From a virus (Duplodnaviria > Heunggongvirae > Uroviricota > Caudoviricetes): a stretch of DNA of 46,731 nt. Every line of letters begins with the position of its first letter. Position 1 is the stretch's first letter. The notes beneath the pieces are model-generated. The model had not been told where the DNA came from. It saw nothing but the letters and a program-made list of their open reading frames with translations, and did no database searches. The stretch lies in the IMG/VR virus record IMGVR_UViG_2529292726_000019; one strand, given 5' to 3'. The position numbers and the translations under genes are program-made. Below are positions 680-45,117 of this stretch, piece after piece.

Positions 680-976
680 GTGTTTTCCTTAATGCTTAAA
701 CAAGTTGTTTTCTTATTGGTTTTATTGTGATGTGGCATAAAAGGGGAGCAAGCTAAACGTAAAGGTGCAAACTCTCTATTTCGGTCAACGAAATACAAGG
801 GCCATTTGGCCCTTGTCATTAACACTTTGCTTTACGAACTAACGGATAAGCGAAGTAGATCGCCAAACCAATGAGGACGCCATCAGAAATGACAGACATC
901 ATCTTTCCCGTAAAATCCACCAACACCGCCATCACCAGAAGAGCAATGACGATCACAAGCCGGAATCTCTCAAGCA

Positions 977-2239: not shown

Positions 2240-2336
2240 CTTTCTCGTTCCATCCTGGAACTGTGTCTTACCGACACATTGTCATCCTGACGCCGATAAG
2301 ATACATGATTTAAAATGATAGGTAAACACTTACTTA

Positions 2337-2927: not shown

Positions 2928-3509
2928 ATAAACTCCTGAATCAAGCGCCGCGCCGATTTTTCCTCGCGCGTGCGCACACGCGTGCGTGTTAATAATTATT
3001 AAAATAAACAAATTACTTCCCAGAACAGGTTTTTATAAACCTGAACTGAACGAACGAAGTGAGTGAAGTTCACCTCGAACGAAGTGAGAGGTTGTCTTTT
3101 CAGGTAATACTCTCCCAGGGAGGTGAGTATAAAAATCTCTCACCAACCTGGTCGTTTCATAACCTGAAAAGTTATGGTCTAAGTCTACTGCCAGCTTAGA
3201 CTTGGGAAGTTATGGATGACAGCACCCCAGAACCGAGATCTTCCCACACTTTATGAAGGGGAGTACTGGATTCAACCTCTCGAAACACCCCAGACTCGAC
3301 AATCATAAAGTGACCCTTGTCTCTGCTCACTTTGGTTCCCCCTTCCCCGACACCTAAACGGCACCAGTTCTACGCTGGTAGTGAGCTTTTTTAAACCTGA
3401 CGCCAGTGACGCTTACCCCCACCCATCAGGTCGAGTCTCCAGTCTACGACTGGAAACTATCAGATCTTAGCACTTACAATTCACTTTATGAATAGTTTGT
3501 ACTTATCTA

Positions 3510-3764
3510 TCATTGTGATTGATTATTTTCTCTACCATGTAGTTGAACATTCAAGGCAAACACCTCATTGATCAACTCACCTAAAAGCTGTTCAACAAGT
3601 TCGCGATGCTCGCCAAGATGCAAGCACTTAATTGCCCATTCGTACAAGTTGAAAGCCTGCTCACGATCTTTCATCATTTCACGAGCCTGGGCCAGAAAAT
3701 CGCTCTCTACGAGCGCAACGACATTAGTCGGGTATGACATGTTGGTTTCCTTAAAGTGGTTCAT
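3510..3764 (-). CDS. hypothetical protein (84 aa)
   Basis: ORF with a start-region-like sequence upstream. Confidence 0.45.
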   Translation of the reverse strand: MNHFKETNMSYPTNVVALVESDFLAQAREMMKDREQAFNLYEWAIKCLHLGEHRELVEQLLGELINEVFALNVQLHGRENNQSQ

Positions 3765-3925
3765 AAAATCGATTTTAAAGCGTCTGGGAAGGGGCTCTAG
3801 TGGATTCTGTAGTGATGTTCAGGTCTGGAGTCTCTGATACAAAACAGCCTTCTTCCGTATATTAATAATTAATATGTAGTTATTTATATATACAGAAGCA
3901 GGCTAATTACAGACACCAGAACAAA

Positions 3926-4519: not shown

Positions 4520-4585
4520 CTTCTTTCTCGATAGGTAAGTAAATACCTATTTTTGCATTTGATTTTATGTCTGGCAATCAAATAA

Positions 4586-9034: not shown

Positions 9035-10165
9035 TCACACCGCCACTGGAACCTTGATCCACGGTAGAGGGGCATAGCCAAGAATAAGAATCTCGTCCCA
9101 TTTGAAATCATCCAGCTCAGACCATTCATTAGGGAATATAACGACCGGATCTGAATGCTCTGGAGCCTGTCGTTGCATTAGCTCACACACACCTTCCATG
9201 TGGTTGTTGTACAAATGCACGTCAAAGCCAAAATGCACAAATGCACCGGCCATGTGACCCGTAATCTTCGCGAGAAAATGAGTGAGAATGCCATAGCCAG
9301 CAATATTGAATGGCATACCAACAAAAGTGTCTACGCTACGCTGTACGAGGCAGGAGTTGAGGATGCGTTTGGGGATTCCAAGTTCATCCAGTTCAGTTTC
9401 AGTAACACTGCCGTCCATCTCCAGATCGTATAGCATCTTGGTGTAGATAGACTCATAACCGAGGCGACTGTGTTGAAGACCAATGTCAGTTGCCATCGTT
9501 AAACGGGTTTCAAAATCCAGTTCACGACTCCACAAAGAGAAGACAAAGTGGCAAGGGGGCAGTTTCATATCCTCAAGCTCGCCTACGTTCCATGCGTTAA
9601 GCATGATGCGACGATCGGTAGGGTTCGTGCGCAGTGTATCGACAATACGCTGTAGCTGATCGATTTCACGGGACAGCACTACGCGATCTTCACTGATACC
9701 CAGGTATCCCTCGACTTTGTACCCGCGTTCACGGAAAGTAGCGATCTTGCTCAGATATTCACTATGGCTCACGATGCGGGTATCTTCCCATCGACGCCAC
9801 TGCTTACCGTAAACCGGCCCCAAATCGCCATTCTCATCGGCCCATGCATCCCAAATCTTAACGCCGTTATCCTTGAGAAATTGGATGTTGCCCGTGCCTT
9901 TCAGATACCACTCAAGTTCGACAAGCAGTGGCTTAAGATTTACCGCCTTTCCAGAAATAAGCGGCACAGTCCCACCAGTAAGCATGTAGTAAGAGGGAAC
10001 GTAGCAGGTGCTTAAAGTACCAGTGCCTGTGCGATCATCAGCCTGCACGCCGCTTTTAAGCACCGTCTCAATAACTTTTGCATACGATGCGTTTGTTCCC
10101 TGACCGTTCGTATGCTCACGATTCAAAAGGAGTGACACAAAAACCTCACAAAGATAAGTAACCAC
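9035..10165 (-). CDS. thyA: thymidylate synthase
   Basis: DDRTGTGTLS, LKPLLVELEWYLKG, GDLGPVYGKQWRRW and catalytic-Cys region MKLPPCHFVFSLW. Confidence 0.85.
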   Translation of the reverse strand: MVTYLCEVFVSLLLNREHTNGQGTNASYAKVIETVLKSGVQADDRTGTGTLSTCYVPSYYMLTGGTVPLISGKAVNLKPLLVELEWYLKGTGNIQFLKDNGVKIWDAWADENGDLGPVYGKQWRRWEDTRIVSHSEYLSKIATFRERGYKVEGYLGISEDRVVLSREIDQLQRIVDTLRTNPTDRRIMLNAWNVGELEDMKLPPCHFVFSLWSRELDFETRLTMATDIGLQHSRLGYESIYTKMLYDLEMDGSVTETELDELGIPKRILNSCLVQRSVDTFVGMPFNIAGYGILTHFLAKITGHMAGAFVHFGFDVHLYNNHMEGVCELMQRQAPEHSDPVVIFPNEWSELDDFKWDEILILGYAPLPWIKVPVAV

Positions 10166-10222
10166 TTATTCATTGCGTGAGTTTACATTTATTGAGAGAA
10201 CAAGACCAGACAGATAAAAAAA

Positions 10223-10241
10223 TGGTGGCCATAGGCCACCA
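10223..10241 (-). terminator. hairpin tggtggcc-ata-ggccacca flanked by A/T runs (bidirectional)
   Basis: Perfect 8-bp stem with T-run on the minus strand after the 289-aa gene. Confidence 0.45.
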
Positions 10242-10309
10242 AAAACGAATAGTTGTTTCAGAAATTTAACGCGCCAGCGCAATATACACAGATAGATAAC
10301 TACCTACAA

Positions 10310-12399: not shown

Positions 12400-12481
12400 G
12401 TGTTTTTCCTTTTTCTTTTTTGGTGCGTTTAAACAAGTTGTTATCTTATGTGTTTAAACAAGGCTTACAAATCAAAGAGAA

Positions 12482-14838: not shown

Positions 14839-14860
14839 GGGCCACTAAATATAGTGGCCC
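14839..14860 (-). terminator. perfect hairpin gggccact-aaatat-agtggccc, 18 nt upstream of the nrdA start codon
   Basis: 8-bp GC-rich stem followed by a T-rich run on the minus strand. Could equally be a 5'-UTR regulatory structure for nrdA. Confidence 0.4.
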
Positions 14861-14894
14861 ATGTTAATAGATAAGCACTTACCTATCAATGAAA

Positions 14895-19438: not shown

Positions 19439-19692
19439 GTGTTTTTCCTTTGTGGTTATTTTGATACAAATTTTAAGAGCAATGAGAAGGTAAACAACTA
19501 TGCATAACGGTATGTTAGGAATGAAACGAGCGTCTTAATATACAAAATTTATAAGTAAGTATATACCTATTTGTTGTGACGCAACTTTGCTTGTCTGTAT
19601 AACTAAAAATAAGACAGGATCACTGTAGAACGCTATGAGAGCTATTTTGAGGAGGCGTAGATTCTATCTACGCCAATATACGATCTGGAGGG

Positions 19693-20536: not shown

Positions 20537-20648
20537 GTATGCTGTCAGCGGTAATTGATAGTCTGTCAGCGGTTCACCGTATGCTGCCAACTGTTTTTGG
20601 TATTCTGTCAGCGGCAAATCAAGTATGCTGTCAGCGGTTGAATGACAA
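20537..20648. repeat. five iterons (consensus GTATGCTGTCAGCGGT) upstream of repA at roughly 21-22 bp spacing
   Basis: Direct repeats at about 20537, 20559, 20579 (degenerate), 20600 and 20633. Confidence 0.8.
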
Positions 20649-20658
20649 AGGTGTCCAC

Positions 20659-21753
20659 ATGTCCACAAAAAATAAAAAAGGTAAAAATAACAAAGAAGTA
20701 GAAGATAACATCGACAACTTTGAAGAAGGTTCCCTTGAATTGTACACAGGGGAACTTGTCCCTAATAGCAACAATACAGTCCAACCAATTGCGTTGATGC
20801 GACTGGGGTTGTTCGTCCCCACGCTTAAGGGAACAAAATACAGTAAACGTAACAAGCCAAATGAGATCGATGCTTCAAAGGAGCTTGTCCAGCTCGAAGT
20901 AGCCCGTTCTGAAGGCTATTCCGATATCAAGATAACCGGTCCTCGTCTCGACATGGATCATGATTTCAAAACGTGGGTGGGCGTTGTGCGTTCGCTGGCA
21001 GAATACGGCGAACCTAACGGTCGTGTCGAGTTAAGCATCACGAAATTTGCTAAGTTTTGTGGCTATCCATCGTCACAGATCCGCAAAACACTCCGCGACC
21101 GGCTTACAAACAGTCTTTTGAAGATCATGCGTACAACTCTGTCTTTCCAGAGAACGTATGAAGAAAAGAACGTCGACGGCTCTAACAAGATCTCGCTTCT
21201 GATGGTGCACCTCATCAATAGCGTGGACTACAACGAGCAGAAAGATACGGTGGTGTTCTATGCAGAACCGAAGCTGGCCGAACTATATCGCTTTGACCAT
21301 AAGGTTCTTTTGCAGTTAAAGGTTATCAATAAGCTACCACGCAAAGAAACAGCACAGGCTCTGTACACCTTCATCGAAAGTCTTCCAACCAAGCCTGCGC
21401 CGGTATCGCTTGCTCGATTGCGTGCGCGACTCAATTTGAGTAGCAGAAATGTCAGCTCGCAGAATCAGACTATACGTAACGGCTTAAAAGCTCTCCAAGA
21501 TTTGGGCTATCTCGAATACAGCGAGATTAAGCGTGGGCGGTCGATCTATATCCAGATTCACAGCCGCAATCCAAAACTCAAAGTCGCACCGCCAAAACCT
21601 GAAGACATCGAACCCAAAAAACCAGATGAGAAAGCTGGGGAAATTGATGCCAAACAGAACATTATCAACAAGATAACCGAACTTTCGCAGAATTTGACGC
21701 CTGAAAATATCAAGATGATTGAGATCCTTTCCAATAGTCTCAAACTGCTTTGA
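20659..21753 (+). CDS. repA: iteron-binding replication initiator (RepA-like)
   Basis: Only long plus-strand gene in this block, bracketed by 17 copies of its presumptive binding site. Start placed at ATG 20659 (MSTKNKKGK) downstream of the iterons. Confidence 0.75.
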   Translation: MSTKNKKGKNNKEVEDNIDNFEEGSLELYTGELVPNSNNTVQPIALMRLGLFVPTLKGTKYSKRNKPNEIDASKELVQLEVARSEGYSDIKITGPRLDMDHDFKTWVGVVRSLAEYGEPNGRVELSITKFAKFCGYPSSQIRKTLRDRLTNSLLKIMRTTLSFQRTYEEKNVDGSNKISLLMVHLINSVDYNEQKDTVVFYAEPKLAELYRFDHKVLLQLKVINKLPRKETAQALYTFIESLPTKPAPVSLARLRARLNLSSRNVSSQNQTIRNGLKALQDLGYLEYSEIKRGRSIYIQIHSRNPKLKVAPPKPEDIEPKKPDEKAGEIDAKQNIINKITELSQNLTPENIKMIEILSNSLKLL

Positions 21754-21870
21754 TATGCTGTCAGCGGTGAAATGTATGCTATCAGCGGCTATTTTTCTGA
21801 AAAGTATGCTGTGAACGGTTAAAGATATGCTACCAGCGGTATAGTGAGATGAACGTATGCTGTGAGCGGT
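21754..21870. repeat. five iterons immediately downstream of repA
   Basis: Copies at about 21754, 21774, 21804, 21825 and 21855 with single-base variants. Confidence 0.8.
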
Positions 21871-22030
21871 AAATCATCTATCACCACTCAATGCTCTGTC
21901 ATACCTCCCCAGTGGTTACTAACCTCGAAGAGTGCATTCCATATAGGTTTGCGCTCACTAACATTCTATTGCTATTGCGCTGATTGCTTGTAGTGAAAGG
22001 CATTTATTGCCTGCTACTCCCTGATAGAAC

Positions 22031-22285
22031 GTATGCTGTCAGCGGTGTTTTATTGAGGAATTTTTGTTTGGATATGCTATCAGCGGTAATTAATGGTATA
22101 TGTCAGACATTCGTATGCTGCCAGCGGTAATTTTGTTCTGGTTATACCCATACCGGGACACATTATTCATGCAATTTCTTAAGTATGCTGTCAGCGGTAA
22201 AAAATCGAGTAAAGTATGCTGTGAGCGGTGAGATAGACTCTCGATATGCTATCAGCGGTAGTTGATTGTGTATGCTGTCAGCGGT
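22031..22285. repeat. seven further iterons (incA-like copy-control array)
   Basis: Copies at about 22031, 22072, 22114, 22183, 22214, 22244 and 22270. Confidence 0.8.
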
Positions 22286-22300
22286 GACGACTATGAAATA

Positions 22301-22325
22301 TGACTGCGGAACGTGCCGCAGTCAG
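22301..22325 (-). terminator. hairpin gactgcgg-aacgt-gccgcagtc
   Basis: Perfect 8-bp stem followed by a T-rich run on the plus strand, i.e. after the repA/iteron unit; it precedes rather than follows the adjacent minus-strand gene. Confidence 0.45.
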
Positions 22326-22332
22326 TTTGCAT

Positions 22333-22545: not shown

Positions 22546-22880
22546 TACCCAACCTCCTTGCAGTCATCGAAAAGGTAGCTTTGCTGAGAAGCGTGAACGC
22601 CATAGAAGCCCTTGTATTTGTTGTATACGAAGTGGTCTTCTCCGACGCCGGTTAATTTGCCATTACGATTTGTGAGATATGGGGATGACAACACTCGATC
22701 GTCACGCACAACATAGAACTGGTCGCCGCTGTCTACGACCATCGCTCCATATGGTGCTTTTATGACGTCGGTAAGAGCGCCATTCTTAACGTCGGCTACA
22801 GACATTTCACACTGATAAACAGTGGTGTCGGCCACAACGATCGAAGAAAGAAACAACAGCGCGAATGGGATGGTCTTCAT
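22545..22880 (-). CDS. secreted protein (111 aa) with N-terminal signal peptide
   Basis: MKTIPFALLFLSSIVVA signal-like N-terminus. Confidence 0.5.
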   Translation of the reverse strand: MKTIPFALLFLSSIVVADTTVYQCEMSVADVKNGALTDVIKAPYGAMVVDSGDQFYVVRDDRVLSSPYLTNRNGKLTGVGEDHFVYNKYKGFYGVHASQQSYLFDDCKEVG

Positions 22881-23056
22881 GCTGCCACCTCTTTGATTAC
22901 ATCAAATGCTGAATTAAATACGAGCACGATAGCCAAAGCGTTTATGACTACGTCGTGCACCGGGGAAAAGACTTTACGAATGACACCAGTGAAAATGCAG
23001 TCGATGACAAAAGCTATTGAAACGATGAGTAACAAGTATTCAATAAAAATCTTCAT
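22877..23056 (-). CDS. small membrane protein (59 aa, below the ORF-track cutoff)
   Basis: Hand-translated MKIFIEYLLLIVSIAFVIDCIF...; ATGA-coupled to the next gene. Confidence 0.3.
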   Translation of the reverse strand: MKIFIEYLLLIVSIAFVIDCIFTGVIRKVFSPVHDVVINALAIVLVFNSAFDVIKEVAA

Positions 23057-23095
23057 GATAGGTAGATACTAACTTATATAAACTTTACTGTAAAC

Positions 23096-23852: not shown

Positions 23853-23906
23853 GTTTTCTTATCCTTTTAAACAAATTGTTTTCTTAATAAGATAATTGCG
23901 ATAAAA

Positions 23907-23928
23907 AAGGCGTCCAACTGGACGCCTG
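23907..23928 (-). terminator. rho-independent terminator aaggcgtcc-aact-ggacgcctt
   Basis: Hairpin followed by a T-run on the minus strand after the SPFH gene. Confidence 0.5.
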
Positions 23929-24777: not shown

Positions 24778-24978
24778 TTATTTCCCCTTTGCTTTGATTA
24801 ATGAGTTGATAAACTTACGACCAGCAATAAGACCGATTACAGGAGCACCAAAACCAACGATAACTCCAAACATGACGGCTAAATCACTCTTGGTAGAAAT
24901 CAGCGACGGAACCAGTAAACCGTAGATGAGAGTCACTGAAAGGCCTGTGGCTACTGCCAATAGATAGATTTTGATCAT
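24778..24978 (-). CDS. small two-helix membrane protein (66 aa), co-transcribed upstream of the SPFH gene
   Basis: Hydrophobic throughout; conserved start region and a palindrome upstream. Confidence 0.5.
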   Translation of the reverse strand: MIKIYLLAVATGLSVTLIYGLLVPSLISTKSDLAVMFGVIVGFGAPVIGLIAGRKFINSLIKAKGK

Positions 24979-25045
24979 GTGTTTTCCTATGTGGTTGTTA
25001 TGCGAAAATAATAAGTAAGCACTTATATATTTTCAAGAGATAAAA

Positions 25046-25066
25046 AAGGCGTCCTGTGGACGCCTT
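25046..25066 (-). terminator. rho-independent terminator aaggcgtcc-tgtg-gacgcctt
   Basis: Hairpin plus T-run on the minus strand after the recA-like gene. Confidence 0.5.
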
Positions 25067-37196: not shown

Positions 37197-38294
37197 AAAA
37201 TTTACACGAATAAGCTCTGTTGATAGACGATCTCCCTTGAATTTGTGGTCAATTTCGTCTAAATCCGGTTGCTCTACGATTGATGCGATGTACGTCGAGA
37301 AACTTTCTAAGGCGTCTCGCATCTCGTCCATATAATCGTGCCGGTCGTAGACTCGATCTATCCCCTCAAGACTGTGGTTCATGATTTTGCGTGATACCTC
37401 CTGGCTTATGCCTAATGCTGGGAAGTAACTACGCGCAGTACGGCGCAAATCTCGGGGTGTAAATGGCTCAAGCTCCATCAGTTCTGGTCGTTCCAGAATA
37501 CGACGTAATGCCTGGGCTATTGCCACTTTAGACATAGGAAGGTCTTTCCCGATTTTTTTATTCGAAGGCACGAGCCACTGGCTGCCTTTACCGTATTCGA
37601 ACAACTCTTCAATACATGTGCGCATTAATGTGCTTAAAGGCAGCGAATGCTCACGGGCAGATTTGTTCCTCTTGCCTTGATTCCAAACCCCACGCTTAAG
37701 ATTGAACTCACTTTTTTTAGCCCGCAGTACTTCGTCAGGTCGTCTTGCGGATACAAGACACAGCCTGGCCGCCCATTTTGTACCAGCGCACACATTGAAG
37801 TAGTCCCATATATTCCAGAACACCCATACCTCTGCGTCGGTCAGCTTCCGCTCGCGAGGTGTGGGCTTTGCGCCACCGGCAACTTTGTTTAGTGACATAT
37901 CGTTTAACGGTGACACGTCTATCATCCCCTGGAAGGCGCACCAGCTAAGGAACTGCTTCATCAGAGAGAAAACGCGGCGGCCCATAACAATTTTGCCATC
38001 CAGTATTAGTGGGTTGACCAGTTGGTTCACCATGAACCTATTAATGTCACTTACTTTTACATCGGCAATGTGCGGCAAAACATGTATCAAAATACAATGA
38101 ACAGCGATCTCTGGCCGACGTCTGGTTATCAGCAGAGATAAGCGAGTGAATAACATGAATGCGTCCGAGAATCTCATGTCATTGCTGACCTGGGAGATCA
38201 TAACGGCCTGCATTTGAGATGCTCTTTCGAGATACTCAATCGCCTCTTTTGAGGTGTTCTCCGCAGCGCGTGCTCTGTCAAAGCTATTTTTCAT
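37191..38294 (-). CDS. tyrosine site-specific recombinase (integrase/Cre-like)
   Basis: C-terminal catalytic region ARRPDE...RDLRRTARSY...MNHS...YDRHDY consistent with the R-H-R-Y tetrad. Confidence 0.75.
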   Translation of the reverse strand: MKNSFDRARAAENTSKEAIEYLERASQMQAVMISQVSNDMRFSDAFMLFTRLSLLITRRRPEIAVHCILIHVLPHIADVKVSDINRFMVNQLVNPLILDGKIVMGRRVFSLMKQFLSWCAFQGMIDVSPLNDMSLNKVAGGAKPTPRERKLTDAEVWVFWNIWDYFNVCAGTKWAARLCLVSARRPDEVLRAKKSEFNLKRGVWNQGKRNKSAREHSLPLSTLMRTCIEELFEYGKGSQWLVPSNKKIGKDLPMSKVAIAQALRRILERPELMELEPFTPRDLRRTARSYFPALGISQEVSRKIMNHSLEGIDRVYDRHDYMDEMRDALESFSTYIASIVEQPDLDEIDHKFKGDRLSTELIRVNFS

Positions 38295-38392
38295 ATGACA
38301 ATCACCGAGTTACGCCGATTCACTGTATAAGTAAACAGTATATTAGGCATAGATTCTTATAGGATCAAGAGTAAAAGTAACTCATTTTCACT

Positions 38393-38425
38393 AATGATTC
38401 CATACATAGTAGGTATGGAATCATT
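38393..38425. repeat. 13-7-13 inverted repeat aatgattccatac-atagtag-gtatggaatcatt, candidate recombinase core site
   Basis: Perfect 13-bp arms with a 7-bp spacer, about 100 bp upstream of the recombinase start. Confidence 0.45.
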
Positions 38426-38561
38426 GAGGATGCGTTTTTTGAAATCTACCCTTCGTTCTAGGAGGTAATATTGAAAATCAAAATAATACATAACAATGCA
38501 TATAAACGTTTGGTAGGGTACAATAAGACAACTTATACTAATAAAGAGGGATTCGAGACAG

Positions 38562-39116
38562 ATGCACTTGCATAAGTTGGTTACACCTGGTTTGGCTTCA
38601 TTGCCGGGTGATCTGTCATATTTAGATATAGACTTTGTTTTCTCTGGCAATGAAGCTCGTAAGGCTAGATACCGTTTAGTCTTTTGCCCTCCTTCTTTAG
38701 ATCCTGTTGCCGCAGAAACTATGCATAATATGTTAGGGGCTGATGTTTATGGGTTGTGTGTATCTGTCGTTAGTTTTGTGGACATGATTCAACTTGACAG
38801 GCAGCAAGAACAGCTCCAGAATGTCGCTCTTGGAGCGGAAGAGCCAATTAACGTATTTGCCAAACCCGAAGGGTCTTTTAATCTTACTTTAGGTGAACTT
38901 CAATACCTTTACGGTACTTTAGTTGACTTAATGCTCAAAGTTGCCGACAATGAAGGCATACAGATTTTATTCTTTGCGGCAGAACGCGAAGAACTGATGG
39001 CCACATACAAGAGATATGTGAAGAGATTTACACAAGAGCGTGGCCTAACTTATTTAAATGACGGAGCTTCCTATGCGATACGAACACAACACTACCCAAA
39101 ACAAAGGGAAGATTGA
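38562..39116 (+). CDS. hypothetical protein (184 aa)
   Basis: Plus-strand ORF followed by a terminator. Confidence 0.45.
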   Translation: MHLHKLVTPGLASLPGDLSYLDIDFVFSGNEARKARYRLVFCPPSLDPVAAETMHNMLGADVYGLCVSVVSFVDMIQLDRQQEQLQNVALGAEEPINVFAKPEGSFNLTLGELQYLYGTLVDLMLKVADNEGIQILFFAAEREELMATYKRYVKRFTQERGLTYLNDGASYAIRTQHYPKQRED

Positions 39117-39240
39117 TTTTAAAACTATCCATGCTAGCAAAGTCGAAATGATCAAACGATTCATGACTGCTAAAGCTGAAGCTGAACGCAAGGGTGAAGT
39201 GGTCTTTAAGCCACTGTAGTGGTTAGCTAGAAGTTATGAA

Positions 39241-39260
39241 AAAGGCCCATATGGGCCTTT
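39241..39260. terminator. bidirectional rho-independent terminator aaaggcccat-atgggccttt
   Basis: Perfect palindrome with A-run before and T-run after, between convergent genes. Confidence 0.5.
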
Positions 39261-39300
39261 TTTGTTATATGTACTATATGTACAAAGATGTGGCTTTTAC

Positions 39301-39893: not shown

Positions 39894-39939
39894 TATTTCT
39901 TCCTACAAAGTTCGTAGACTTGACTCTTTCAGTTGCAAA

Positions 39940-39959
39940 AAAGGGGCCGAAGCCCCTTT
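39940..39959 (-). terminator. hairpin ggggccgaagcccc with T-run, downstream of the tRNA cluster
   Basis: aaaggggccgaagccccttt flanked by A/T runs. Confidence 0.45.
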
Positions 39960-40035
39960 GAATTTTGCGCTGAAAAAAAAGTGTTGCTAGGATGTTAGCA
40001 AGCTATGGTTAAGAACGTCTGCCGTAATTGTCTAT

Positions 40036-40113
40036 CACAGCGTTGAGCGGTCTGGTTTATGTTAGCGGAGTCTTAATCTGGGTGATTAAAAGGCCAAACC
40101 GCTCAACGCTGTG
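40036..40113 (-). ncRNA. long hairpin (16-bp perfect stem, about 46-nt loop) abutting the 3' end of tRNA-Ser
   Basis: cacagcgttgagcggt...accgctcaacgctgtg. Confidence 0.3.
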
Positions 40114-40115
40114 TC

Positions 40116-40202
40116 TGGCGGAGAGTAATGGAATCGAACCATCATCGCTTGCGCAATGGGACGGTTTTCAAGACCGCTTGAGCACCATGCTCCCTACTCT
40201 CC
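40116..40202 (-). tRNA. tRNA-Ser (anticodon TGA), class II with long variable arm
   Basis: Acceptor GGAGAGT/ACTCTCC, anticodon loop CTTGAAA, T-loop TTCGATT, encoded CCA. Confidence 0.7.
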
Positions 40203-40346
40203 GGCCGTTGTGGTGGCCGGGACTGAATCTCCGGCATACGGTGCAGCCAATTAGGACTACGGACGATCACCGCTCGCGAAAGGGAAGATTTGCGGCCGCA
40301 TTTCCCTAACATCCAAGAAAGCTATCGCATCAGTCTGCGAATCCAC

Positions 40347-40425
40347 CACAACGGTAAGATCACTACCTTTCGACCAGTCATTGTGCACATGAACGACGAT
40401 TAACCGTAATGATCTTATCGTTGTG
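40347..40425 (-). ncRNA. structured hairpin element 1 (stem cacaacggtaagatca / tgatcttatcgttgtg)
   Basis: About 79-nt imperfect hairpin; paralogous to element 2 and sharing the 3' flank gttgtgttg. Confidence 0.3.
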
Positions 40426-40476
40426 TTGTGAAGCCAGATGCTTATCTTCTGGTTGCCTCAAAGAGCTGCACTTCCT

Positions 40477-40565
40477 CACAACGGTAAGAGCACTGGTCTG
40501 ACTCTATCGATTTACGGGCTTGTGGGTCAGTATCGCCGATTCGCCCAATGCACTTACCTGTTGTG
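40477..40565 (-). ncRNA. structured hairpin element 2 (stem cacaacggtaag / cttacctgttgtg) abutting the 3' end of tRNA-Thr
   Basis: About 89-nt imperfect hairpin; does not fold as a tRNA by eye. Confidence 0.3.
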
Positions 40566-40566
40566 T

Positions 40567-40643
40567 TGGTGCCGGTTAACGGACTCGAACCGCTGACATC
40601 CTGCTTACAAGGCAGGCGCTCTACCAACTGAGCTAAACCGGCA
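40567..40643 (-). tRNA. tRNA-Thr (anticodon TGT)
   Basis: Reverse complement TGCCGGTTTAGCTCAGTTGGTAGAGCGCCTGCCTTGTAAGCAGGATGTCAGCGGTTCGAGTCCGTTAACCGGCACCA folds as a cloverleaf. Confidence 0.8.
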
Positions 40644-40646
40644 ATT

Positions 40647-40733
40647 TGGTGGGGAGTGATGGAGTCGAACCACCCGAGTCGCCATGACAGTAGATTTACA
40701 GTCTACCCCGCTGCCCCTACGGACTAACTCCCC
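40647..40733 (-). tRNA. tRNA-Tyr (anticodon GTA), long variable arm
   Basis: Acceptor GGGGAGT/ACTCCCC, anticodon stem-loop GTAGA-CTGTAAA-TCTAC, T-loop TTCGACT, CCA encoded. Confidence 0.8.
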
Positions 40734-40738
40734 TAAAT

Positions 40739-40813
40739 TGGCGATGGTGGGTGGATTCGAACCACCGACCAGTTGGTTAACAGCCAACTGCTCTACCGCT
40801 GAGCTACACCATC
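40739..40813 (-). tRNA. tRNA-Asn (anticodon GTT)
   Basis: Reverse complement GATGGTGTAGCTCAGCGGTAGAGCAGTTGGCTGTTAACCAACTGGTCGGTGGTTCGAATCCACCCACCATCGCCA. Confidence 0.8.
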
Positions 40814-41591
40814 AATTCAGCACTGCCAGTATTTATTACTCAACAGTGCCAATCGCGACGGTTTAGTTTCTGCCAGGAAACGCACCGCTACTTGCACTTT
40901 TCGTTAGTGCCAGACGCTTTCGACTTCGCTCAATAGTAGAAGGCAAAATCTTTAAGTAGATGATGTTTCTGAGGACAGCACCTACTTTGTAATTTATACA
41001 ATGTGATGTATGGAATCATTTGTTGTGAAAACAGGCACCAATGGCAACAGTGGTTAAACCTACACAACAATCCTGTCTTCACAACGTTGAGGCCACTACT
41101 CCGATTGAATGTTTGCCCAACATGTTACATATCAACGCTCGCCGGTATCTCTGTGAATAGAACCTTAGAATTGATAAAAATGTAATGGCCTCAACGTTAT
41201 GTGCTGGCTAACCATACCAGCCGGGCTACGTCGCCGCTTTTTAACCCAGTATAAACGACATAATTGAACAAAATGACGTAACAGGATGGGCGGTCAGTGG
41301 CTAAGAATCCGGGAGTCATATGGAGTTGAAAATATACCAACCGCCCATTCTGTTACTTCATCGGAGGGAACATGAATGTTCCCTCCTGCGTTCTGCAATC
41401 ACACTCGCTCAGTGTGTCCCATTTCGGTAACGAGGCTGGAAACTGACCTCGCTGGTGTTTGGCTTATTAGGCTACTGCCAGATAGACTTCTTCGTTTGCA
41501 CTTGTATTTAAGTTCAAACAGTCGCGTCTCAACGAAAACAAAGTCATCTTATACACAAAAGATAAGTAAGTAAATACTTATCAATATGTTT

Positions 41592-41882
41592 TTATTCGGT
41601 TGTGACTTTTTTGATCAAGGCCACTCTACGACTAGGTGTTCTTGTGATGGTGGCAGTGAATCGTTTCGCTTGGATAGTAATGGTTTCGTTCTCCTTAAGT
41701 TGCCCGTAGCGAGTTTCCACCAGGGTGCCAAGACGCCACAGACCATCATCGATACGTTTATGACTAGCAAATTTAATCAGCAACAGTTTTACGACTAACT
41801 GACCTACGTAAAAGGCGAATGCGACTCCGGCCGCTAAGAAATAGGTGGCCAACCACCAGTCCCAAGAAGTTAAATTGCTCAT
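41592..41882 (-). CDS. membrane protein (96 aa), member of a small tandem paralogous family
   Basis: N-terminal TM helix WWLATYFLAAGVAFAFYVGQLVV and a basic tail. Confidence 0.5.
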   Translation of the reverse strand: MSNLTSWDWWLATYFLAAGVAFAFYVGQLVVKLLLIKFASHKRIDDGLWRLGTLVETRYGQLKENETITIQAKRFTATITRTPSRRVALIKKVTTE

Positions 41883-42031
41883 TTTCTAACCTTTGTTTCA
41901 TGAACTACCCGATACACACGCTTTCCGATGCATAGTGTTTTGGTTTTAAGTTCCTGCTTAATTAAATCACGACAGATGCCGAAGCCAATAAGGAAGCCAC
42001 CCATAAAAGCTAATGAGATGTATGGAATCAT
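41879..42031 (-). CDS. small membrane protein (50 aa, below the ORF-track cutoff), paralog
   Basis: Hand-translated MIPYISLAFMGGFLIGFGICRDLIKQELKTKTLCIGKRVYRVVHETKVRK; ATGA-coupled to the 96-aa gene. Confidence 0.3.
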   Translation of the reverse strand: MIPYISLAFMGGFLIGFGICRDLIKQELKTKTLCIGKRVYRVVHETKVRK

Positions 42032-42243
42032 TTTAACGCTCCTGATTCTACTAATTGCTGTAGCAATACTTTCCCTTTATCAGTTAACTGGTAGTTGGCC
42101 GAACACTTCGTTTCAGAAACGTTTGCAACCAACCCTAAACGCTCTAACTTAGCTCGCGTTTTAGGCTTCCAGTACTCAGGGAACTCCGGCCACTTACTGA
42201 TTTCATGAAGCGTTTCCTTCTCCCGTTTACTTAATACGATCAT
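42028..42243 (-). CDS. hypothetical protein (71 aa)
   Basis: ORF; start overlaps the end of the upstream small ORF. Confidence 0.45.
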   Translation of the reverse strand: MIVLSKREKETLHEISKWPEFPEYWKPKTRAKLERLGLVANVSETKCSANYQLTDKGKVLLQQLVESGALK

Positions 42244-42406: not shown

Positions 42407-43725
42407 TCTTTATCTCCGATTCGATCTTCTGTATCGCGTAAGCAACGCGGCCATTTCAGTCGTGGGTGGCGTAAGCTGCCGTCCGGTGTTTTCTCGTGAC
42501 AATGAACCTCGACAATACGACCACGGTACTTCTCTTTGTTGTTCCAGATCTCATCCAGATATTTATGCTTAATGCCGCTCGCACGAACGATGACGCCGTT
42601 TTCAAGACGAATAACAATTTTTCCAAGTGTGTTGGCAAAACCAGAGTCCGGGTCGCCCGGCTCAAAGTCGATAATTTCACCATCTTCTGAATCTTCGTCT
42701 TTTAACTTCCACCAGCTGCGGGTACGTTTAAACTCGTAAACAGAGTTCGGATCTTTGCCCATCTCCCCTTCTTCGTTATCGTCCAGGCGTTTCATGAAGC
42801 GTTCGATGAAGTCTTCGTGGCTATGGATGATATAGAACGGATGCAGGTGAATGTCTTGTGTGTAGCCTTCACTGCGATCGTTTTTGAACAACGCCACCAG
42901 CATAGCCAGGCGCTCTTTCAGCTTCATACCTGTCTTTGCATACTCTTTGGATTTAGCCTGTGCTCGCCATTCCGGTAGGAAGAAGTCGAAAACATGATAA
43001 ATAGCGCCAATTGCCTGCACGTTCTTTTTGCGCAATGCAGATACGGACTGGTTAAATGAACCGGCAGTTCCTTCACCATCGAAGAAGATGTGTTTGTGGC
43101 CTGAAAGTTTGCCTAATTCGAGCATTGCTGGCTTTAGGTGATCGAGAGACGTGATTGGATTACCAGTACGAGAAAGGAAGTTAACCTCTTCCTCGTCAAC
43201 AATAACCTCGCAAATTACTCGCAAACCATCGAGCTTAAGACTGCCAATCATCGGCCATTTTGCTTTAGGATTTGGCTTGAAGGGGTATTTGTCGCCTTTT
43301 TCTTTATACGGTGACGCCAGCTGCACCTCGAATTTCGGAATGGGATTTTCAAAAACCTTGTTGCATAGGCTAATCCCAACACCTGCTTTCGGGTCTTTTA
43401 AGAGGAAACGACGGAACACGTCCTGCCCATCGGCGCACATTGACGCCACGATAGACTCAACAGCTGCTATTGCTGCGTTCCCCGTTAGCTCGCGAGAGGC
43501 CAGCTTATTCAGTACATCAATGGCTTTTTCGTCACTTGGGATGGACTCACTAAGCGGCTCTGCCACTTTGTATTTCTTTACCCCAAAACGGATGAAAGGG
43601 TTGAGCATCAATGAAACCATGCTTTGCTCGAAGTCATCCATGTTGGCCAATGCCTCTTTTTTTGCATTGGTTCCCATAGCTTTCATTTCGTCCAGCTTAT
43701 GCTTAAGTGCGATCAACTTTTTCAT
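42403..43725 (-). CDS. ATP-dependent DNA ligase
   Basis: Motif I KLDGLR (SLKLDGLRVICEV) and nucleotidyltransferase/OB-fold layout. Confidence 0.8.
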   Translation of the reverse strand: MKKLIALKHKLDEMKAMGTNAKKEALANMDDFEQSMVSLMLNPFIRFGVKKYKVAEPLSESIPSDEKAIDVLNKLASRELTGNAAIAAVESIVASMCADGQDVFRRFLLKDPKAGVGISLCNKVFENPIPKFEVQLASPYKEKGDKYPFKPNPKAKWPMIGSLKLDGLRVICEVIVDEEEVNFLSRTGNPITSLDHLKPAMLELGKLSGHKHIFFDGEGTAGSFNQSVSALRKKNVQAIGAIYHVFDFFLPEWRAQAKSKEYAKTGMKLKERLAMLVALFKNDRSEGYTQDIHLHPFYIIHSHEDFIERFMKRLDDNEEGEMGKDPNSVYEFKRTRSWWKLKDEDSEDGEIIDFEPGDPDSGFANTLGKIVIRLENGVIVRASGIKHKYLDEIWNNKEKYRGRIVEVHCHEKTPDGSLRHPRLKWPRCLRDTEDRIGDKE

Positions 43726-44204
43726 TGTTGTTTTACCTCCATATGTTGATCGATTTGCTCATGTGTTTCTTTTGTTGTTTCTTCAAGCAACGCCGCATAC
43801 ACGTCAGTGATCGCTGTTTGTGATGTGGTGCTCTTCTTAACCATGCTATTAATCGTTACACTGTCACGTTTTCGTTTTAAAGTTCTGGCTTGTTTATTCC
43901 GTTCTTCAACCTCCTTAATGAGCGCGGTCATATCTTCGAAATACAGAGATTCTCCTTTACGAATCTCTTCAACCATCATTTTTAACGCCTTGCATTTGCC
44001 TGCTTTGATAGCGGTTGCGCACGACTGGAATGAAGTTCGAGGAAGACGGTTTTCTTTGAAGGCAAGAATGGTGTGCTGGCAAACGGAGTAGCTGCAATAT
44101 GCCGACTCACCGTTTATCTTTACTTCCTCACAACGAAGTGAATAACCATTATTTCCTGAAATAGAGGGGATTTTTGACAAATCAGCTTTCACAACTACCG
44201 CCAT
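43722..44204 (-). CDS. hypothetical protein (160 aa)
   Basis: ORF with several Cys residues; stop/start coupled with the ligase gene. Confidence 0.5.
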   Translation of the reverse strand: MAVVVKADLSKIPSISGNNGYSLRCEEVKINGESAYCSYSVCQHTILAFKENRLPRTSFQSCATAIKAGKCKALKMMVEEIRKGESLYFEDMTALIKEVEERNKQARTLKRKRDSVTINSMVKKSTTSQTAITDVYAALLEETTKETHEQIDQHMEVKQQ

Positions 44205-44259
44205 AAATAATCTTGTACTTACCTATCGTTATTTGCGTAAAAAACGACGCGCGGAGAGA

Positions 44260-45042: not shown

Positions 45043-45117
45043 ACCAACTCCTAGCTAACAGATGAAAGTATTCTCACAGAAAGATAAGTAATCATCTACT
45101 TATTTTGAAGGTGATTG

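What the first reader, a model, noticed from the sequence alone, without database searches (positions are those of the whole stretch)
25011..25026. Dispersed TAAGTA-N4-6-TACTTA palindromes in intergenic regions
At least twelve intergenic sites carry an AT-rich inverted repeat of this form: 2321-2338, 4531-4550, 14866-14884, 19551-19570, 23059-23076, 25011-25026, 28538-28556, 34106-34121, 36765-36778, 41561-41582, 44215-44226 and 45084-45103. Most lie 30-60 nt upstream of start codons. They could be operators for a single repressor that controls many scattered operons, as C1 does in P1, with the XRE regulator at 36810 as a candidate. The same half-sites form the stems of the tRNA-region hairpins, so an RNA-level role is equally possible.
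Basis: partly seen in the sequence, partly recalled or inferred. Interest (0 to 1): 0.6.

Follow-up and report, generated by a model that had tools for sequence, protein, structure and literature searches.

The report
Dispersed palindromic operator sites, phage-plasmid
About fifteen copies of one 18-22 bp palindrome sit between the lytic genes of this SSU5-like phage-plasmid; they are conserved in roughly a thousand related plasmids and are most likely binding sites for the prophage repressor that keeps these genes silent.

Summary
The repeat is real. TARGTA-N6-TACYTA with up to 2 mismatches gives 20 matches against 3.3 expected. Within intergenic DNA alone, exact matches number 5 against 0.01 expected.

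The true unit is an 18-22 bp palindrome, (G/A)ATARGTAAGT|ACTTACYTAT(C/T). The window holds about 15 copies, all but one intergenic.

The window is the replication module of an SSU5-like phage-plasmid, 98% identical to E. coli LF82 phage Cyrano. The motif occupies orthologous positions in Cyrano, Salmonella SSU5, 80 viral contigs and a distant Klebsiella plasmid. Acinetobacter phage-plasmids carry it as ATTAGTAAGCGCTTACTAAT.

The half-sites show no compensatory change, and several copies do not fold as RNA. So this is a site on double-stranded DNA for a symmetric protein, not an RNA hairpin.

Some copies fill the spacer or -10 of sigma-70 promoters. Published LF82 RNA-seq shows expression stepping up immediately downstream of several copies. 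Other copies lie 2-16 nt from the next ATG or directly after stop codons.

The XRE protein at 36810 remains the best candidate binder. It co-occurs with the family, is expressed in lysogens, and has a site over its own predicted start. Binding is untested. The proposed link to the tRNA-region hairpins and the '30-60 nt upstream' claim do not hold.

The parts
2319..2336 (.). Motif site. The gene-sense (minus) strand reads TAAGTA-agtgtt-TACCTA. It abuts the stop codon of gene 2337-2930 and lies 130 nt upstream of the ATG at 2188.
   Evidence: Exact match. Position-weight-matrix score 31.8. Orthologous site in Cyrano at 79652 and SSU5 at 79905. Gaps.
3492..3509 (.). Weaker motif site (TAGATA-agtaca-AACTAT on the sense strand), directly after the stop codon of gene 3510-3764.
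   Evidence: Score 16.5-17.9. Orthologues at Cyrano 78487 and SSU5 78710, where it reads TCGGTAagtactTACCAT.
4532..4549 (.). Motif site (TAGGTA-tttact-TACCTA), 12 nt upstream of the adenine-methyltransferase ATG at 4519.
   Evidence: Exact match. Score 27.3. Orthologues at Cyrano 77437 and SSU5 77652. Gap.
10155..10172 (.). Motif site (TGAATA-agtggt-TACTTA), 16 nt upstream of the ThyX start.
   Evidence: Score 25.0. Orthologues at Cyrano 72600 and SSU5 72512. The downstream gene (CYRAN_72) rises from about 3.4 to 6.2 log2 in the macrophage 6 h columns.
10289..10306 (.). Weaker motif site (TAGGTA-gttatc-TATCTG), 3 nt after the MazG stop codon and upstream of an intrinsic terminator at 10223-10241.
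   Evidence: Score 16.6. Terminator. Orthologue at Cyrano 72463.
14868..14885 (.). Motif site (TAGGTA-agtgct-TATCTA), 9 nt after the RuvC stop codon. It is followed by a terminator-like hairpin at 14839-14860 and then the NrdA ATG at 14821.
   Evidence: Score 28.0. Promoter-like TTGATA-17-TAACAT at 14889..14861 and the hairpin. Orthologues at Cyrano 67884 and SSU5 67776.
19552..19569 (.). Motif site (TAGGTA-tatact-TACTTA), 113 nt upstream of the SbcD ATG.
   Evidence: Exact match. Score 28.4. Orthologues in SSU5 at 63081 and in IMG/VR loci.
23059..23076 (.). Motif site (TAAGTT-agtatc-TACCTA) only 2 nt from the ATG of gene 22877-23056. It overlaps the -10 of the promoter-like TTTACA-17-TAGTAT, which implies a near-leaderless transcript.
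   Evidence: Score 24.4. Promoter scan. The downstream operon CYRAN_60-62 steps from 4.95 (CYRAN_59) to 8.6 log2 in the MB6 columns.
25012..25029 (.). The flagged site (TATATA-agtgct-TACTTA). It fills the 17-bp spacer of a sigma-70 promoter, lies downstream of the intrinsic terminator at 25046-25066, and is 33 nt from the ATG at 24978.
   Evidence: Score 28.3. Promoter and terminator. The TTGAAA -35 and the site are conserved in E. coli, Salmonella and Klebsiella-type loci. CYRAN_56 rises from 2.3 to 7.65 log2 while the upstream RecA gene stays near 4.
25008..25036 (-). Sigma-70 promoter TTGAAA-17-TATTAT (10 of 12 matches) that encloses the flagged site.
   Evidence: Expression step in the LF82 data.
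28532..28549 (.). Motif site (TAAGTA-agtact-GATCTA), 14 nt after the UvsY stop codon and 85 nt upstream of the gp32-like SSB ATG.
   Evidence: Score 30.1. Promoter-like TAGATA-17-TATCAT. Conserved in 38 distinct upstream sequences from 80 loci.
34103..34120 (.). Weak motif site (TAAGTA-accact-TACGAT), 18 nt after a stop codon and 59 nt upstream of the ATG at 34043.
   Evidence: Score 11.9. Orthologue at SSU5 45125.
35434..35451 (.). Weak motif-like match inside the coding sequence of gene 34139-36247. Of doubtful significance.
   Evidence: Score 14.8-17.2. Cyrano 43933 scores 12.5.
36763..36780 (.). Motif site with the perfect inner palindrome GGTAAGYRCTTACC, between the divergent XRE gene and the lytic-direction gene 36346-36558. 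It overlaps the predicted transcription start of the XRE promoter.
   Evidence: Score 15.3. Sequence. Orthologue in locus L079. CYRAN_46 rises from 4.3 to 10.8 log2 and XRE from 6.6 to 9.9 in the same columns.
36736..36763 (+). Predicted XRE promoter, TTTACA-16-TAATAT, ending 1 nt before the palindrome.
36810..37196 (+). XRE/Cro-CI-type helix-turn-helix protein (128 aa). Candidate motif-binding repressor, unproven.
   Evidence: PHROG 8, E = 6.6e-12. Pfam HTH_19 below its cut-off. Present in 961 plasmids next to an integrase. Conserved recognition helix. 96 FPKM in lysogens against a background of 9.8.
41563..41580 (.). Motif site (TAAGTA-tttact-TACTTA), 11 nt after a stop codon, at the head of the 0.75-kb leader of the tRNA cluster.
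   Evidence: Exact match. Score 31.3. Identical core in SSU5 at 41774.
44208..44225 (.). Half-degenerate motif site (TAGGTA-agtaca-AGATTA), 3 nt from the ATG at 44204.
   Evidence: Score 18.7. Orthologue at Cyrano 35617. Expression drops across it, from 7.3 to 4.8 log2 in MB6.
45085..45102 (.). Motif site (TAAGTA-gatgat-TACTTA), 15 nt after the primase stop codon and 42 nt upstream of the ATG at 45042. It lies within TTCAAA-17-TATCTT.
   Evidence: Exact match. Score 26.7. CYRAN_34 steps up relative to primase in every condition, for example 5.1 to 8.5 log2 in B6.

Best explanation
The repeats are copies of one protein-binding site on double-stranded DNA. It is an 18-22 bp palindrome, ATARGTAAGT|ACTTACYTAT, present about 15 times in the window and about 27 times in the whole roughly 108-kb phage-plasmid. 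Copies are confined to the lytic modules (replication, nucleotide metabolism, structure, lysis).

The most likely mechanism is repression. A dimeric phage-encoded repressor made in the plasmid-prophage state occupies the sites and keeps the lytic genes off. The best candidate is the XRE-type protein at 36810-37196.

Two modes of action are proposed:
- Where the site fills the -35/-10 spacer or covers the -10 or start point of a promoter (25012, 23059, 45085, 28532, 14868, and the repressor's own promoter at 36763), binding would block RNA polymerase. At the repressor's own promoter this would give negative autoregulation.
- Where the site sits in very short gene junctions with no room for a promoter (2-16 nt before an ATG, or overlapping a stop codon), it may act as a roadblock to read-through.

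Shown here: the motif, its enrichment, its symmetry, its deep positional conservation, the lack of RNA-type covariation, its overlap with promoter-like sequences, and expression steps at several sites in published RNA-seq.

Inferred: repression rather than activation, XRE as the binder, and the roadblock role.
For: - Enrichment and intergenic restriction.
- Two-fold symmetry extending over about 22-26 bp.
- Purifying selection. In 12 orthologous window/SSU5 pairs the core is 88% identical (outer halves 94%, spacer 76%) against 43-64% in the flanks.
- The same sites at the same junctions in Cyrano (27 sites) and SSU5 (25 sites), in 80 IMG/VR loci, and in a Klebsiella plasmid whose SSB is only 42% identical.
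- Acinetobacter phage-plasmids carry about 18 sites of ATTAGTAAGCGCTTACTAAT, including the terminase-portal junction and the helicase/ParB divergent region.
- Four of the nine minus-strand sigma-70-like hits in the window fall on the sites.
- In the LF82 data, expression steps up exactly at genes following sites: CYRAN_46 (+6.4 log2), CYRAN_56 (+5.3), CYRAN_60 (+6.3), CYRAN_12 and CYRAN_34. Upstream neighbours change little. XRE mRNA rises about 10-fold in the same samples, as expected for a negatively autoregulated repressor that has been inactivated.
- XRE is expressed in lysogens at 96 FPKM. The other DNA-binding proteins shared with the Acinetobacter group are at background: the two ParB_N proteins at 5 and 9.5 FPKM, and the winged-helix protein CYRAN_123 at 7.8.
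- XRE has the same distribution as the family and a conserved recognition helix.
- The only XRE-less relative is the plaque-isolated phage SSU5. None of 822 plasmids is colinear across its junction.
Against: - No binding data exist.
- Only 2 of 27 Cyrano sites have a canonical -35 (TTGAAA). About half have a TAnnnT at the fixed register, and that is equally frequent on the antisense strand. Most sites therefore cannot be shown to be promoters.
- Several sites precede terminator-like hairpins (14868; Cyrano 5444 and 15530). This is odd for a promoter-operator.
- Expression drops at some sites coincide with intrinsic terminators, so a roadblock effect cannot be separated from termination.
- Because XRE is a core gene, co-distribution is weak evidence. 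Its Pfam helix-turn-helix hit is below the gathering score and no solved homologue was found.
- The RNA-seq is per gene, not start-site resolved, and comes from Cyrano (98% identical), not from this exact element.
Confidence: 0.55

Rival explanations
1. The palindrome is the recognition element of activator-dependent lytic promoters. A phage activator binds it in place of a -35 element and recruits host RNA polymerase, as Lpa does at the P1 late promoters.
For: - Most sites lack a -35 element.
- The P1 late-promoter -22 box AAGTTACTT (LPhot) resembles the inner core AAGT|ACTT.
- In Acinetobacter the core is flanked by TATAAT/TAATAT.
- Expression steps up after several sites.
- A small winged-helix gene sits just upstream of the small terminase gene (CYRAN_123). 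It rises modestly in the macrophage samples, from 2.9 to 6.6 log2.
Against: - No Lpa homologue is found (tblastn E >= 0.29).
- The -10-like hexamer is as frequent on the antisense strand. No -10 is enriched at Lpa-like, class II or class I distances.
- Sites 2-16 nt from the next ATG, or overlapping a stop codon, leave no room for a start point plus ribosome-binding site.
- A site lies over the start of the lysogeny-expressed XRE promoter.
Confidence: 0.15
2. The sites are operators, but for a phage protein other than XRE. Candidates are the FljA-like regulator, the 71-aa protein at 42028-42243, the winged-helix protein CYRAN_123, or the ParB_N proteins acting like KorB of plasmid RK2.
For: - SSU5 keeps all its sites without XRE.
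- A site lies 18 nt upstream of the first ParB-like gene in Cyrano, SSU5 and the Acinetobacter plasmid.
- Cyrano encodes an FljA-family protein (Pfam PF03614, E = 1e-80; PHROG 'transcriptional repressor').
Against: - The ParB_N proteins show no helix-turn-helix domain and have acidic C-terminal halves. They are at background in lysogens.
- The FljA-like protein, the 71-aa protein and the Cra-like protein have no detectable homologue in the Acinetobacter plasmids that share the motif.
- CYRAN_123 is at background in lysogens.
- The absence of XRE in SSU5 is a unique derived deletion.
Confidence: 0.15
3. The element works at the RNA level, as a hairpin in the polycistronic transcripts that serves as a processing, stability or translational-control signal.
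For: - The sites are inverted repeats on the transcribed strand, at gene junctions, some next to ribosome-binding sites.
- Five of the thirteen folded sites have z-scores of -2.8 or lower.
Against: - The commonest half-site combination is an A-C mismatch (42 of 113 distinct sites), with no depletion relative to independence.
- Two sites have 0 kcal/mol and four more are -2.5 kcal/mol or weaker.
- Sequence is conserved rather than pairing.
- No Rfam family matches.
- The motif is equally good on both strands.
Confidence: 0.04
4. The sites are core-type binding sites for the adjacent tyrosine recombinase (37191-38294). They would allow in-register exchange of gene modules between co-resident phage-plasmids.
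For: - The geometry, 7-8 bp inverted arms around a 6-bp spacer, resembles lox/dif-type cores.
- The integrase always accompanies XRE.
- Spacers differ between paralogous sites but are often identical between orthologous ones.
Against: - The spacer has its own palindromic consensus (AGTACT) and carries information. That is typical of an operator, not of a crossover region.
- The similarity breakpoints seen in the BLAST comparisons (window 18123, 20658, about 43697) do not fall on sites.
- Dimer-resolution systems need a single site.
Confidence: 0.03

Closest known systems
Phage P1 C1 repressor and its dispersed operators
   Same: A plasmid prophage in which one repressor holds many scattered lytic operons through numerous operators, several of them overlapping sigma-70 promoters (see the P1 annotation). 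The repressor gene is itself flanked by operators.
   Different: C1 operators are asymmetric 17-mers of unrelated sequence. C1 is a 283-aa protein with no homologue here (tblastn E >= 0.55). The present sites are palindromic. They also occur inside the structural-gene block, which in P1 is governed by Lpa rather than C1.
Mycobacteriophage L5 gp71 'stoperators' (from my own knowledge, Brown et al. 1997; not checked in the paper library)
   Same: About 25-30 copies of one repressor site are spread over early and late regions. They lie in very short intergenic gaps and often touch stop or start codons. This matches the 9 of 15 window sites that start 0-19 nt after a stop codon, and the terminase-portal junction site whose first three bases are the terminase stop codon.
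   Different: L5 sites are asymmetric 13-mers with a single orientation relative to transcription. The host and the proteins are unrelated. Blocking of elongation is not shown here.
P1 late promoters (Lpa-dependent -22 box plus -10)
   Same: A short inverted repeat, AAGTTACTT, replaces the -35 element. Its half-sites AAGT/ACTT equal the inner core of the present motif. P1 has eleven such promoters (PMC10695390).
   Different: The P1 box is 9 bp with a central base. No Lpa homologue is present. No separate -10 at a fixed distance is found, and the -10-like flank is symmetric.
KorB/OB global regulon of plasmid RK2 (from my own knowledge)
   Same: A dozen copies of one palindromic operator are dispersed over a plasmid. 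Some are at promoters and some are far from any promoter.
   Different: KorB is a ParB-family protein with a helix-turn-helix domain. The ParB_N proteins here lack a recognisable one and are silent in lysogens.

Membership tests
P1 C1 operator/repressor system | Asymmetric 17-bp operator and a C1-family repressor gene | tested here: not met
   The motif is a palindrome of unrelated sequence. tblastn of P1 C1 against Cyrano, SSU5 and pC714_2 gives E >= 0.55.
P1 C1 operator/repressor system | Many dispersed operators at lytic transcription units of a plasmid prophage | tested here: met
   About 15 sites in the window and 27 in Cyrano, confined to the lytic modules. This is an analogy of function, not homology.
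L5-type stoperators | Sites in short intergenic gaps within operons, touching stop or start codons | tested here: met
   Stop-to-core gaps of 0, 0, 3, 9, 11, 14, 15, 18 and 19 nt. Core-to-ATG gaps of 2, 3, 12 and 16 nt. The terminase stop codon lies inside the site in Cyrano and SSU5.
L5-type stoperators | Asymmetric site with one orientation relative to transcription | tested here: not met
   The sites score similarly on both strands.
L5-type stoperators | Repressor bound at the site blocks elongating RNA polymerase | not testable with these tools
   Expression drops across some sites coincide with intrinsic terminators.
P1 Lpa-dependent late promoter | Inverted repeat centred near -22 with a -10 hexamer at a fixed distance, and an Lpa activator | tested here: not met
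   The inner core AAGT|ACTT resembles the P1 box AAGTTACTT. However, there is no directional -10 and no Lpa homologue.
Sigma-70 promoter | -35 and -10 hexamers 16-18 bp apart on the gene strand | tested here: inconclusive
   Met at 25008-25036, 23055-23094, 28528-28556, 14861-14889 and 45085. Only 2 of 27 Cyrano sites have a TTGAAA -35.
Intrinsic terminator | G+C-rich stem followed by a T run | tested here: not met
   None of the terminator-like hits coincides with a site; they lie beside the sites. The stems are A+T-rich and weak.
Structured RNA element (processing or regulatory hairpin) | Base pairing maintained by compensatory change, with stable folding | tested here: not met
   A-C pairs are the commonest class. 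Fold energies are 0 to -8.3 kcal/mol. There are no Rfam hits.
XRE/Cro-CI helix-turn-helix repressor (protein at 36810-37196) | Helix-turn-helix domain of the XRE type | tested here: inconclusive
   PHROG 8 'transcriptional regulator', E = 6.6e-12. Pfam HTH_19 scores 18.9 bits against a cut-off of 30.2. No NCBIfam or PDB sequence match.
Tyrosine-recombinase core site | Inverted arms around an asymmetric, unconstrained 6-8 bp crossover region, usually one site per replicon | tested here: not met
   The arm and spacer geometry fits, but the spacer has a palindromic consensus (AGTACT) and there are about 27 sites.

The most novel reading that the evidence does not exclude
One small XRE-type repressor silences about 90 kb of lytic genes through a grid of about 27 palindromic sites. 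These would act both as promoter operators and as intra-operon roadblocks, a Gram-negative counterpart of mycobacteriophage stoperators. The grid would be conserved site-for-site from Enterobacteriaceae (including Y. pestis pMT1-type and S. Typhi pHCM2-type plasmids) to Acinetobacter phage-plasmids. Loss of the repressor module, as in phage SSU5, would turn the plasmid into a virulent phage.
Probability: 0.25. Interest if true: 0.7.

Novelty: new member of a known kind. Interest (0 to 1): 0.55.

Why it matters
The switch between plasmid maintenance and lytic growth is uncharacterised for the SSU5 supergroup. This is the largest known set of phage-plasmids and is found in E. coli, Klebsiella, Salmonella, Yersinia pestis, Enterobacter and Acinetobacter.

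This finding gives a concrete, testable regulon: a defined 22-bp site, about 27 mapped positions, and a named candidate repressor. It also offers a natural explanation for why SSU5 itself behaves as a lytic phage.

The motif is a simple sequence marker for lytic transcription units in about a thousand clinical plasmids. It could be used to predict inducibility or to engineer strictly lytic derivatives.

I found no paper describing the motif in four full-text searches. The library does not hold most subscription journals, so it may have been described elsewhere.

Tried and rejected
1. I first took the absence of XRE from SSU5 as a refutation of the XRE hypothesis. I withdrew this after finding XRE in 961 plasmids and finding that none of 822 plasmids is colinear across the SSU5 junction. 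SSU5 carries a derived deletion.
2. I read the TAT..T that follows the right half-site as a directional -10. It is equally frequent on the antisense strand and is simply the palindrome's outer flank.
3. I searched for a -10 at Lpa-like, class II or class I distances. None is enriched.
4. Homology to P1 Lpa or C1: none.
5. A phage sigma factor: present in the Acinetobacter group but with no homologue in the enteric elements.
6. Rfam scan: only tRNAs.
7. An exact 18-mer scan of IMG/VR returned SSU5-like contigs plus unrelated contigs carrying (TAAG)n(CTTA)n palindromes, for example L102, L093 and L164. I judged these to be chance or unrelated.
8. The FljA-like regulator as binder: I could not obtain the FljA target sequence from the held papers, and the protein is absent from the Acinetobacter relatives.
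9. I looked for an Aeromonas relative lacking XRE, to serve as a natural control. None appeared among the listed rows.
10. The papers on SSU5 itself were not held. The 2026 preprint on a phage-plasmid promoter could not be opened.
Full report
**What the window is.** The 46.7-kb window is 97-99% identical to E. coli phage-plasmids (CMS-2020a, PhiR41_1 and Cyrano, also known as pLF82). It is about 77-80% identical to Salmonella phage SSU5 and to Klebsiella phage-plasmids. It covers the replication, recombination and nucleotide-metabolism module. Nearly all genes are on the minus strand. It also contains four tRNA genes, the RepA replicon, and a divergent XRE-integrase pair.

- The hexamers TARGTA/TACYTA fall 31 of 44 times in the 14.6% of the window that is intergenic.
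- TTACTTA occurs 14 times in intergenic DNA against once in coding DNA.
- Aligned on the gene-sense strand, all sites share one register: TARGTA, six bases, TACYTA.
- With up to 2 mismatches this pattern gives 20 matches against 3.3 expected.
- Against dinucleotide shuffles of the intergenic DNA alone, the counts are 5 against 0.01 (exact), 7 against 0.09 (up to 1 mismatch) and 14 against 1.3 (up to 2 mismatches).

The full unit is a palindrome, (G/A)ATARGTAAGT|ACTTACYTAT(C/T), and scores similarly on both strands. Three further sites (3492, 10155, 10289) and one weak intragenic match (35434) were missed.

- Only 4 of 15 sites lie 30-60 nt from the next ATG. The gaps range from 2 to 749 nt, whereas 9 of 15 sites begin 0-19 nt after the preceding stop codon.
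- The hairpins in the tRNA region have unrelated G+C-rich stems.

**Conservation.**
- In the complete Cyrano genome the motif occurs about 27 times. All but two copies are intergenic, and the sites cover the structural, lysis, replication and nucleotide-metabolism modules. The plasmid-maintenance and accessory regions are essentially free of it.
- SSU5 has 25 sites at the orthologous junctions.
- In 12 orthologous window/SSU5 pairs the 18-bp core is 88% identical (outer halves 94%, spacer 76%). The flanks are 43-64% identical.
- Eighty IMG/VR loci with 77-100% SSB identity keep the sites. So does a Klebsiella plasmid whose SSB is only 42% identical.
- Acinetobacter baumannii phage-plasmids share only about 25-40% protein identity. 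They carry about 18 copies of ATATTAGTAAGCGCTTACTAATAT. This matches the enteric half-site at 8 of 10 positions. The copies sit at the same places, including the terminase-portal junction and the helicase/ParB divergent region.

The element is therefore an ancient, positionally conserved feature of the whole SSU5/AB lineage.

**DNA or RNA?** If pairing mattered, the R at position 3 and the Y at position 16 should covary. Among 113 distinct sites the commonest combination is A with C, a mismatch (42 sites). G-C accounts for 22, A-T for 20 and G-T for 14. That is what independence predicts. Folded as RNA, 13 window sites range from 0 to -8.3 kcal/mol, and two do not fold at all. Rfam finds only tRNAs. 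What is conserved is sequence with two-fold symmetry. This is the signature of a dimeric protein binding double-stranded DNA.

**Relation to promoters.**
- Sigma-70-like promoters are generally depleted in the window (13 found against 30 expected, 21 against 31, and 4 against 18). Yet four of the nine minus-strand hits fall on motif sites.
- At the flagged locus the site exactly fills the spacer of TTGAAA-17-TATTAT (25036..25008). It lies just downstream of an intrinsic terminator. This arrangement is conserved across genera.
- At 23059-23076 the site overlaps the -10 of TTTACA-17-TAGTAT, and the ATG follows 2 nt after the core. This implies a near-leaderless mRNA.
- At 36763-36780 the palindrome begins 1 nt after the -10 of the XRE gene's own promoter, TTTACA-16-TAATAT.
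- The motif is not an intrinsically directional promoter. A TAnnnT at the fixed register is found in about half the sites on the sense strand and about equally on the antisense strand. Only 2 of 27 Cyrano sites have a good -35. No -10 is enriched at other fixed distances.
- Sites lying 2-16 nt before an ATG, overlapping a stop codon, or preceding terminator-like hairpins cannot all be promoters for the next gene.

**Independent expression evidence.** The supplementary per-gene RNA-seq table for Cyrano in E. coli LF82 (PMC9928086, file 2) shows lytic genes at background in LB lysogens. The median is 9.8 FPKM.

In the columns labelled MB6 there is partial, unit-specific induction. The paper compares LB stationary cultures with bacteria inside macrophages, so I take MB6 to be macrophages at 6 h. 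Expression steps up exactly at genes that follow sites:

| Upstream gene to downstream gene | log2 expression across the site | Window site |
|---|---|---|
| CYRAN_55 to CYRAN_56 | 4.05 to 7.65 | 25012 |
| CYRAN_59 to CYRAN_60 | 4.95 to 8.6 | 23059 |
| CYRAN_11 to CYRAN_12 | 5.9 to 8.4 | outside the window |
| CYRAN_33 to CYRAN_34 | +2 to +3.4, in every condition | 45085 |

CYRAN_46, which follows window site 36763, rises from 4.3 to 10.8. XRE mRNA itself rises from 6.6 to 9.9 in the same samples. That is the behaviour expected of a negatively autoregulated repressor whose protein has been inactivated.

At other sites expression drops, for example CYRAN_30 to CYRAN_31 (10 to 4) and CYRAN_34 to CYRAN_35 (7.3 to 4.8). 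Intrinsic terminators lie nearby, so a roadblock effect cannot be isolated.

**Who binds?** I first thought XRE was excluded because SSU5 lacks it, along with the integrase and two neighbouring genes. That inference was wrong.
- XRE occurs in 961 PLSDB plasmids with the same genus breakdown as the family's SSB gene (976 plasmids), always next to the integrase.
- None of 822 plasmids is colinear across the SSU5 junction. SSU5, a phage isolated by plaque formation and proposed for biocontrol cocktails (PMC7969092), therefore carries a unique derived deletion. That is what one would expect of a virulent repressor-deletion variant.
- The XRE recognition helix (GYKNANNLSLIKSGK) is nearly invariant among homologues of 57-69% identity. 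It is recognisably similar in Acinetobacter (NQNMVSFIVRGK), in parallel with the conserved core GTAAG-YR-CTTAC.
- Proteins shared between Cyrano and the Acinetobacter plasmid that could bind DNA are XRE, two ParB_N proteins, a small winged-helix protein and the small terminase.
- The ParB_N proteins show no helix-turn-helix domain and have acidic C-termini. They and the winged-helix protein are at background in lysogens, whereas XRE is at 96 FPKM.
- The FljA-like regulator, the 71-aa protein and the Cra-like protein are not detectable in Acinetobacter.

XRE is thus the best candidate, but nothing here demonstrates binding.

**Comparison with known systems.** In mode of action the closest are the P1 C1 regulon and the mycobacteriophage L5 stoperators. 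In P1, many dispersed operators lie on a plasmid prophage. In L5, about 25-30 sites lie in tight junctions across early and late genes. Membership fails for both. The site here is palindromic, its sequence is unrelated, and no C1 homologue exists. The inner core AAGT|ACTT resembles the P1 late-promoter -22 box AAGTTACTT. However, there is no Lpa homologue and no Lpa-type geometry. Four full-text searches found no description of this motif. The library is incomplete, so prior description elsewhere cannot be excluded.

**Verdict.** This is a real, highly conserved family of palindromic DNA sites that marks the lytic transcription units of SSU5-type phage-plasmids. It is best explained as the operator set of the prophage repressor. 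The candidate is XRE, acting by promoter occlusion at some sites and possibly as a roadblock at others. It is a new member of a known kind of system. Interest is moderate to good, because it makes the unknown lysis-lysogeny switch of a very large, clinically widespread plasmid family directly testable.

Noticed in passing
window 698-710, 1427-1439, 12431-12443, 23869-23881, 36267-36279: A second dispersed palindrome, AAACAA-N-TTGTTT, with three exact copies and two one-mismatch copies. Every copy is intergenic, about 20-25 nt upstream of an ATG and just before a conserved AAGGAAAACACATG ribosome-site context. The related k-mers TTGTTTA and CAACTTGT are also intergenic-only in the distant Klebsiella plasmid pC714_2. 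This may be a second regulator's site.
   Followed up: partly
window 3840-3900; Cyrano 31160-31215, 78080-78140 and 108350 to the end; SSU5 about 33483 and 78329: A recurring long A+T-rich hairpin, CTGCTTCTGTATATA...TATATAC(A/G)GAAG(C/A)AGG. The weight matrix picks it up as a weak hit, but it is clearly a different element. In Cyrano, expression falls from about 10 to 4 log2 across one copy.
   Followed up: partly
window 39894-41600: Long G+C-rich inverted repeats surround the tRNA genes (CACAGCGTTGAGCGGTCTGG, CACAACGTTGAGGCCACTAC, ATGACGTAACAGGATGGGCGGT). The window also has a 364-nt spacer and a tRNA-Tyr gene that Cyrano lacks. They are unrelated to the TAAGTA motif.
   Followed up: partly
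window 21754-22332: About a dozen iterons, ACCGCTGACAGCATA(C/T), lie beside the RepA gene (20539-21753). This is presumably the plasmid origin.
   Followed up: no
L005 (SSU5) about 42630-42670, compared with window 36250-39300: Phage SSU5 lacks the XRE-integrase-orf184-orf70 block found in essentially all plasmid relatives. None of 822 plasmids is colinear across the junction. SSU5 may be a natural repressor-deletion (virulent) variant.
   Followed up: yes
window 38562-39116 (+): This 184-aa ORF of unknown function (CYRAN_43, PHROG 28788) is by far the most highly expressed Cyrano gene in lysogens, at about 7000 FPKM against a background of 9.8.
   Followed up: no
L166 15101-15766 (Acinetobacter plasmid NZ_CP061522): The Acinetobacter relatives encode a sigma-70-family sigma factor between the MoxR-like ATPase and the DNA polymerase III alpha gene. 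The enteric elements have no detectable homologue.
   Followed up: partly
L004 18791-19312 (Cyrano CYRAN_114): A full-length FljA-family protein ('repressor of phase-1 flagellin', Pfam E = 1e-80) is encoded on the phage-plasmid. In Salmonella, FljA controls flagellin expression, so this might affect host flagellin.
   Followed up: no
window 23908-23927 and 25046-25066: Two intrinsic terminators share nearly the same stem, AGGCGTCC...GGACGCCT.
   Followed up: no
window, whole: Sigma-70 consensus promoters are markedly depleted relative to shuffles: 13 found against 29.6 expected, 21 against 31.1, and 4 against 18.1.
   Followed up: no
L102 11620-11700; L093, L164, L153, L138, L161: Unrelated metagenomic viral contigs carry (TAAG)n(CTTA)n palindromes identical to the motif core. 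In L102 two copies lie 55 nt apart near the terminase gene. I could not tell whether this is chance or a shared binding specificity.
   Followed up: partly
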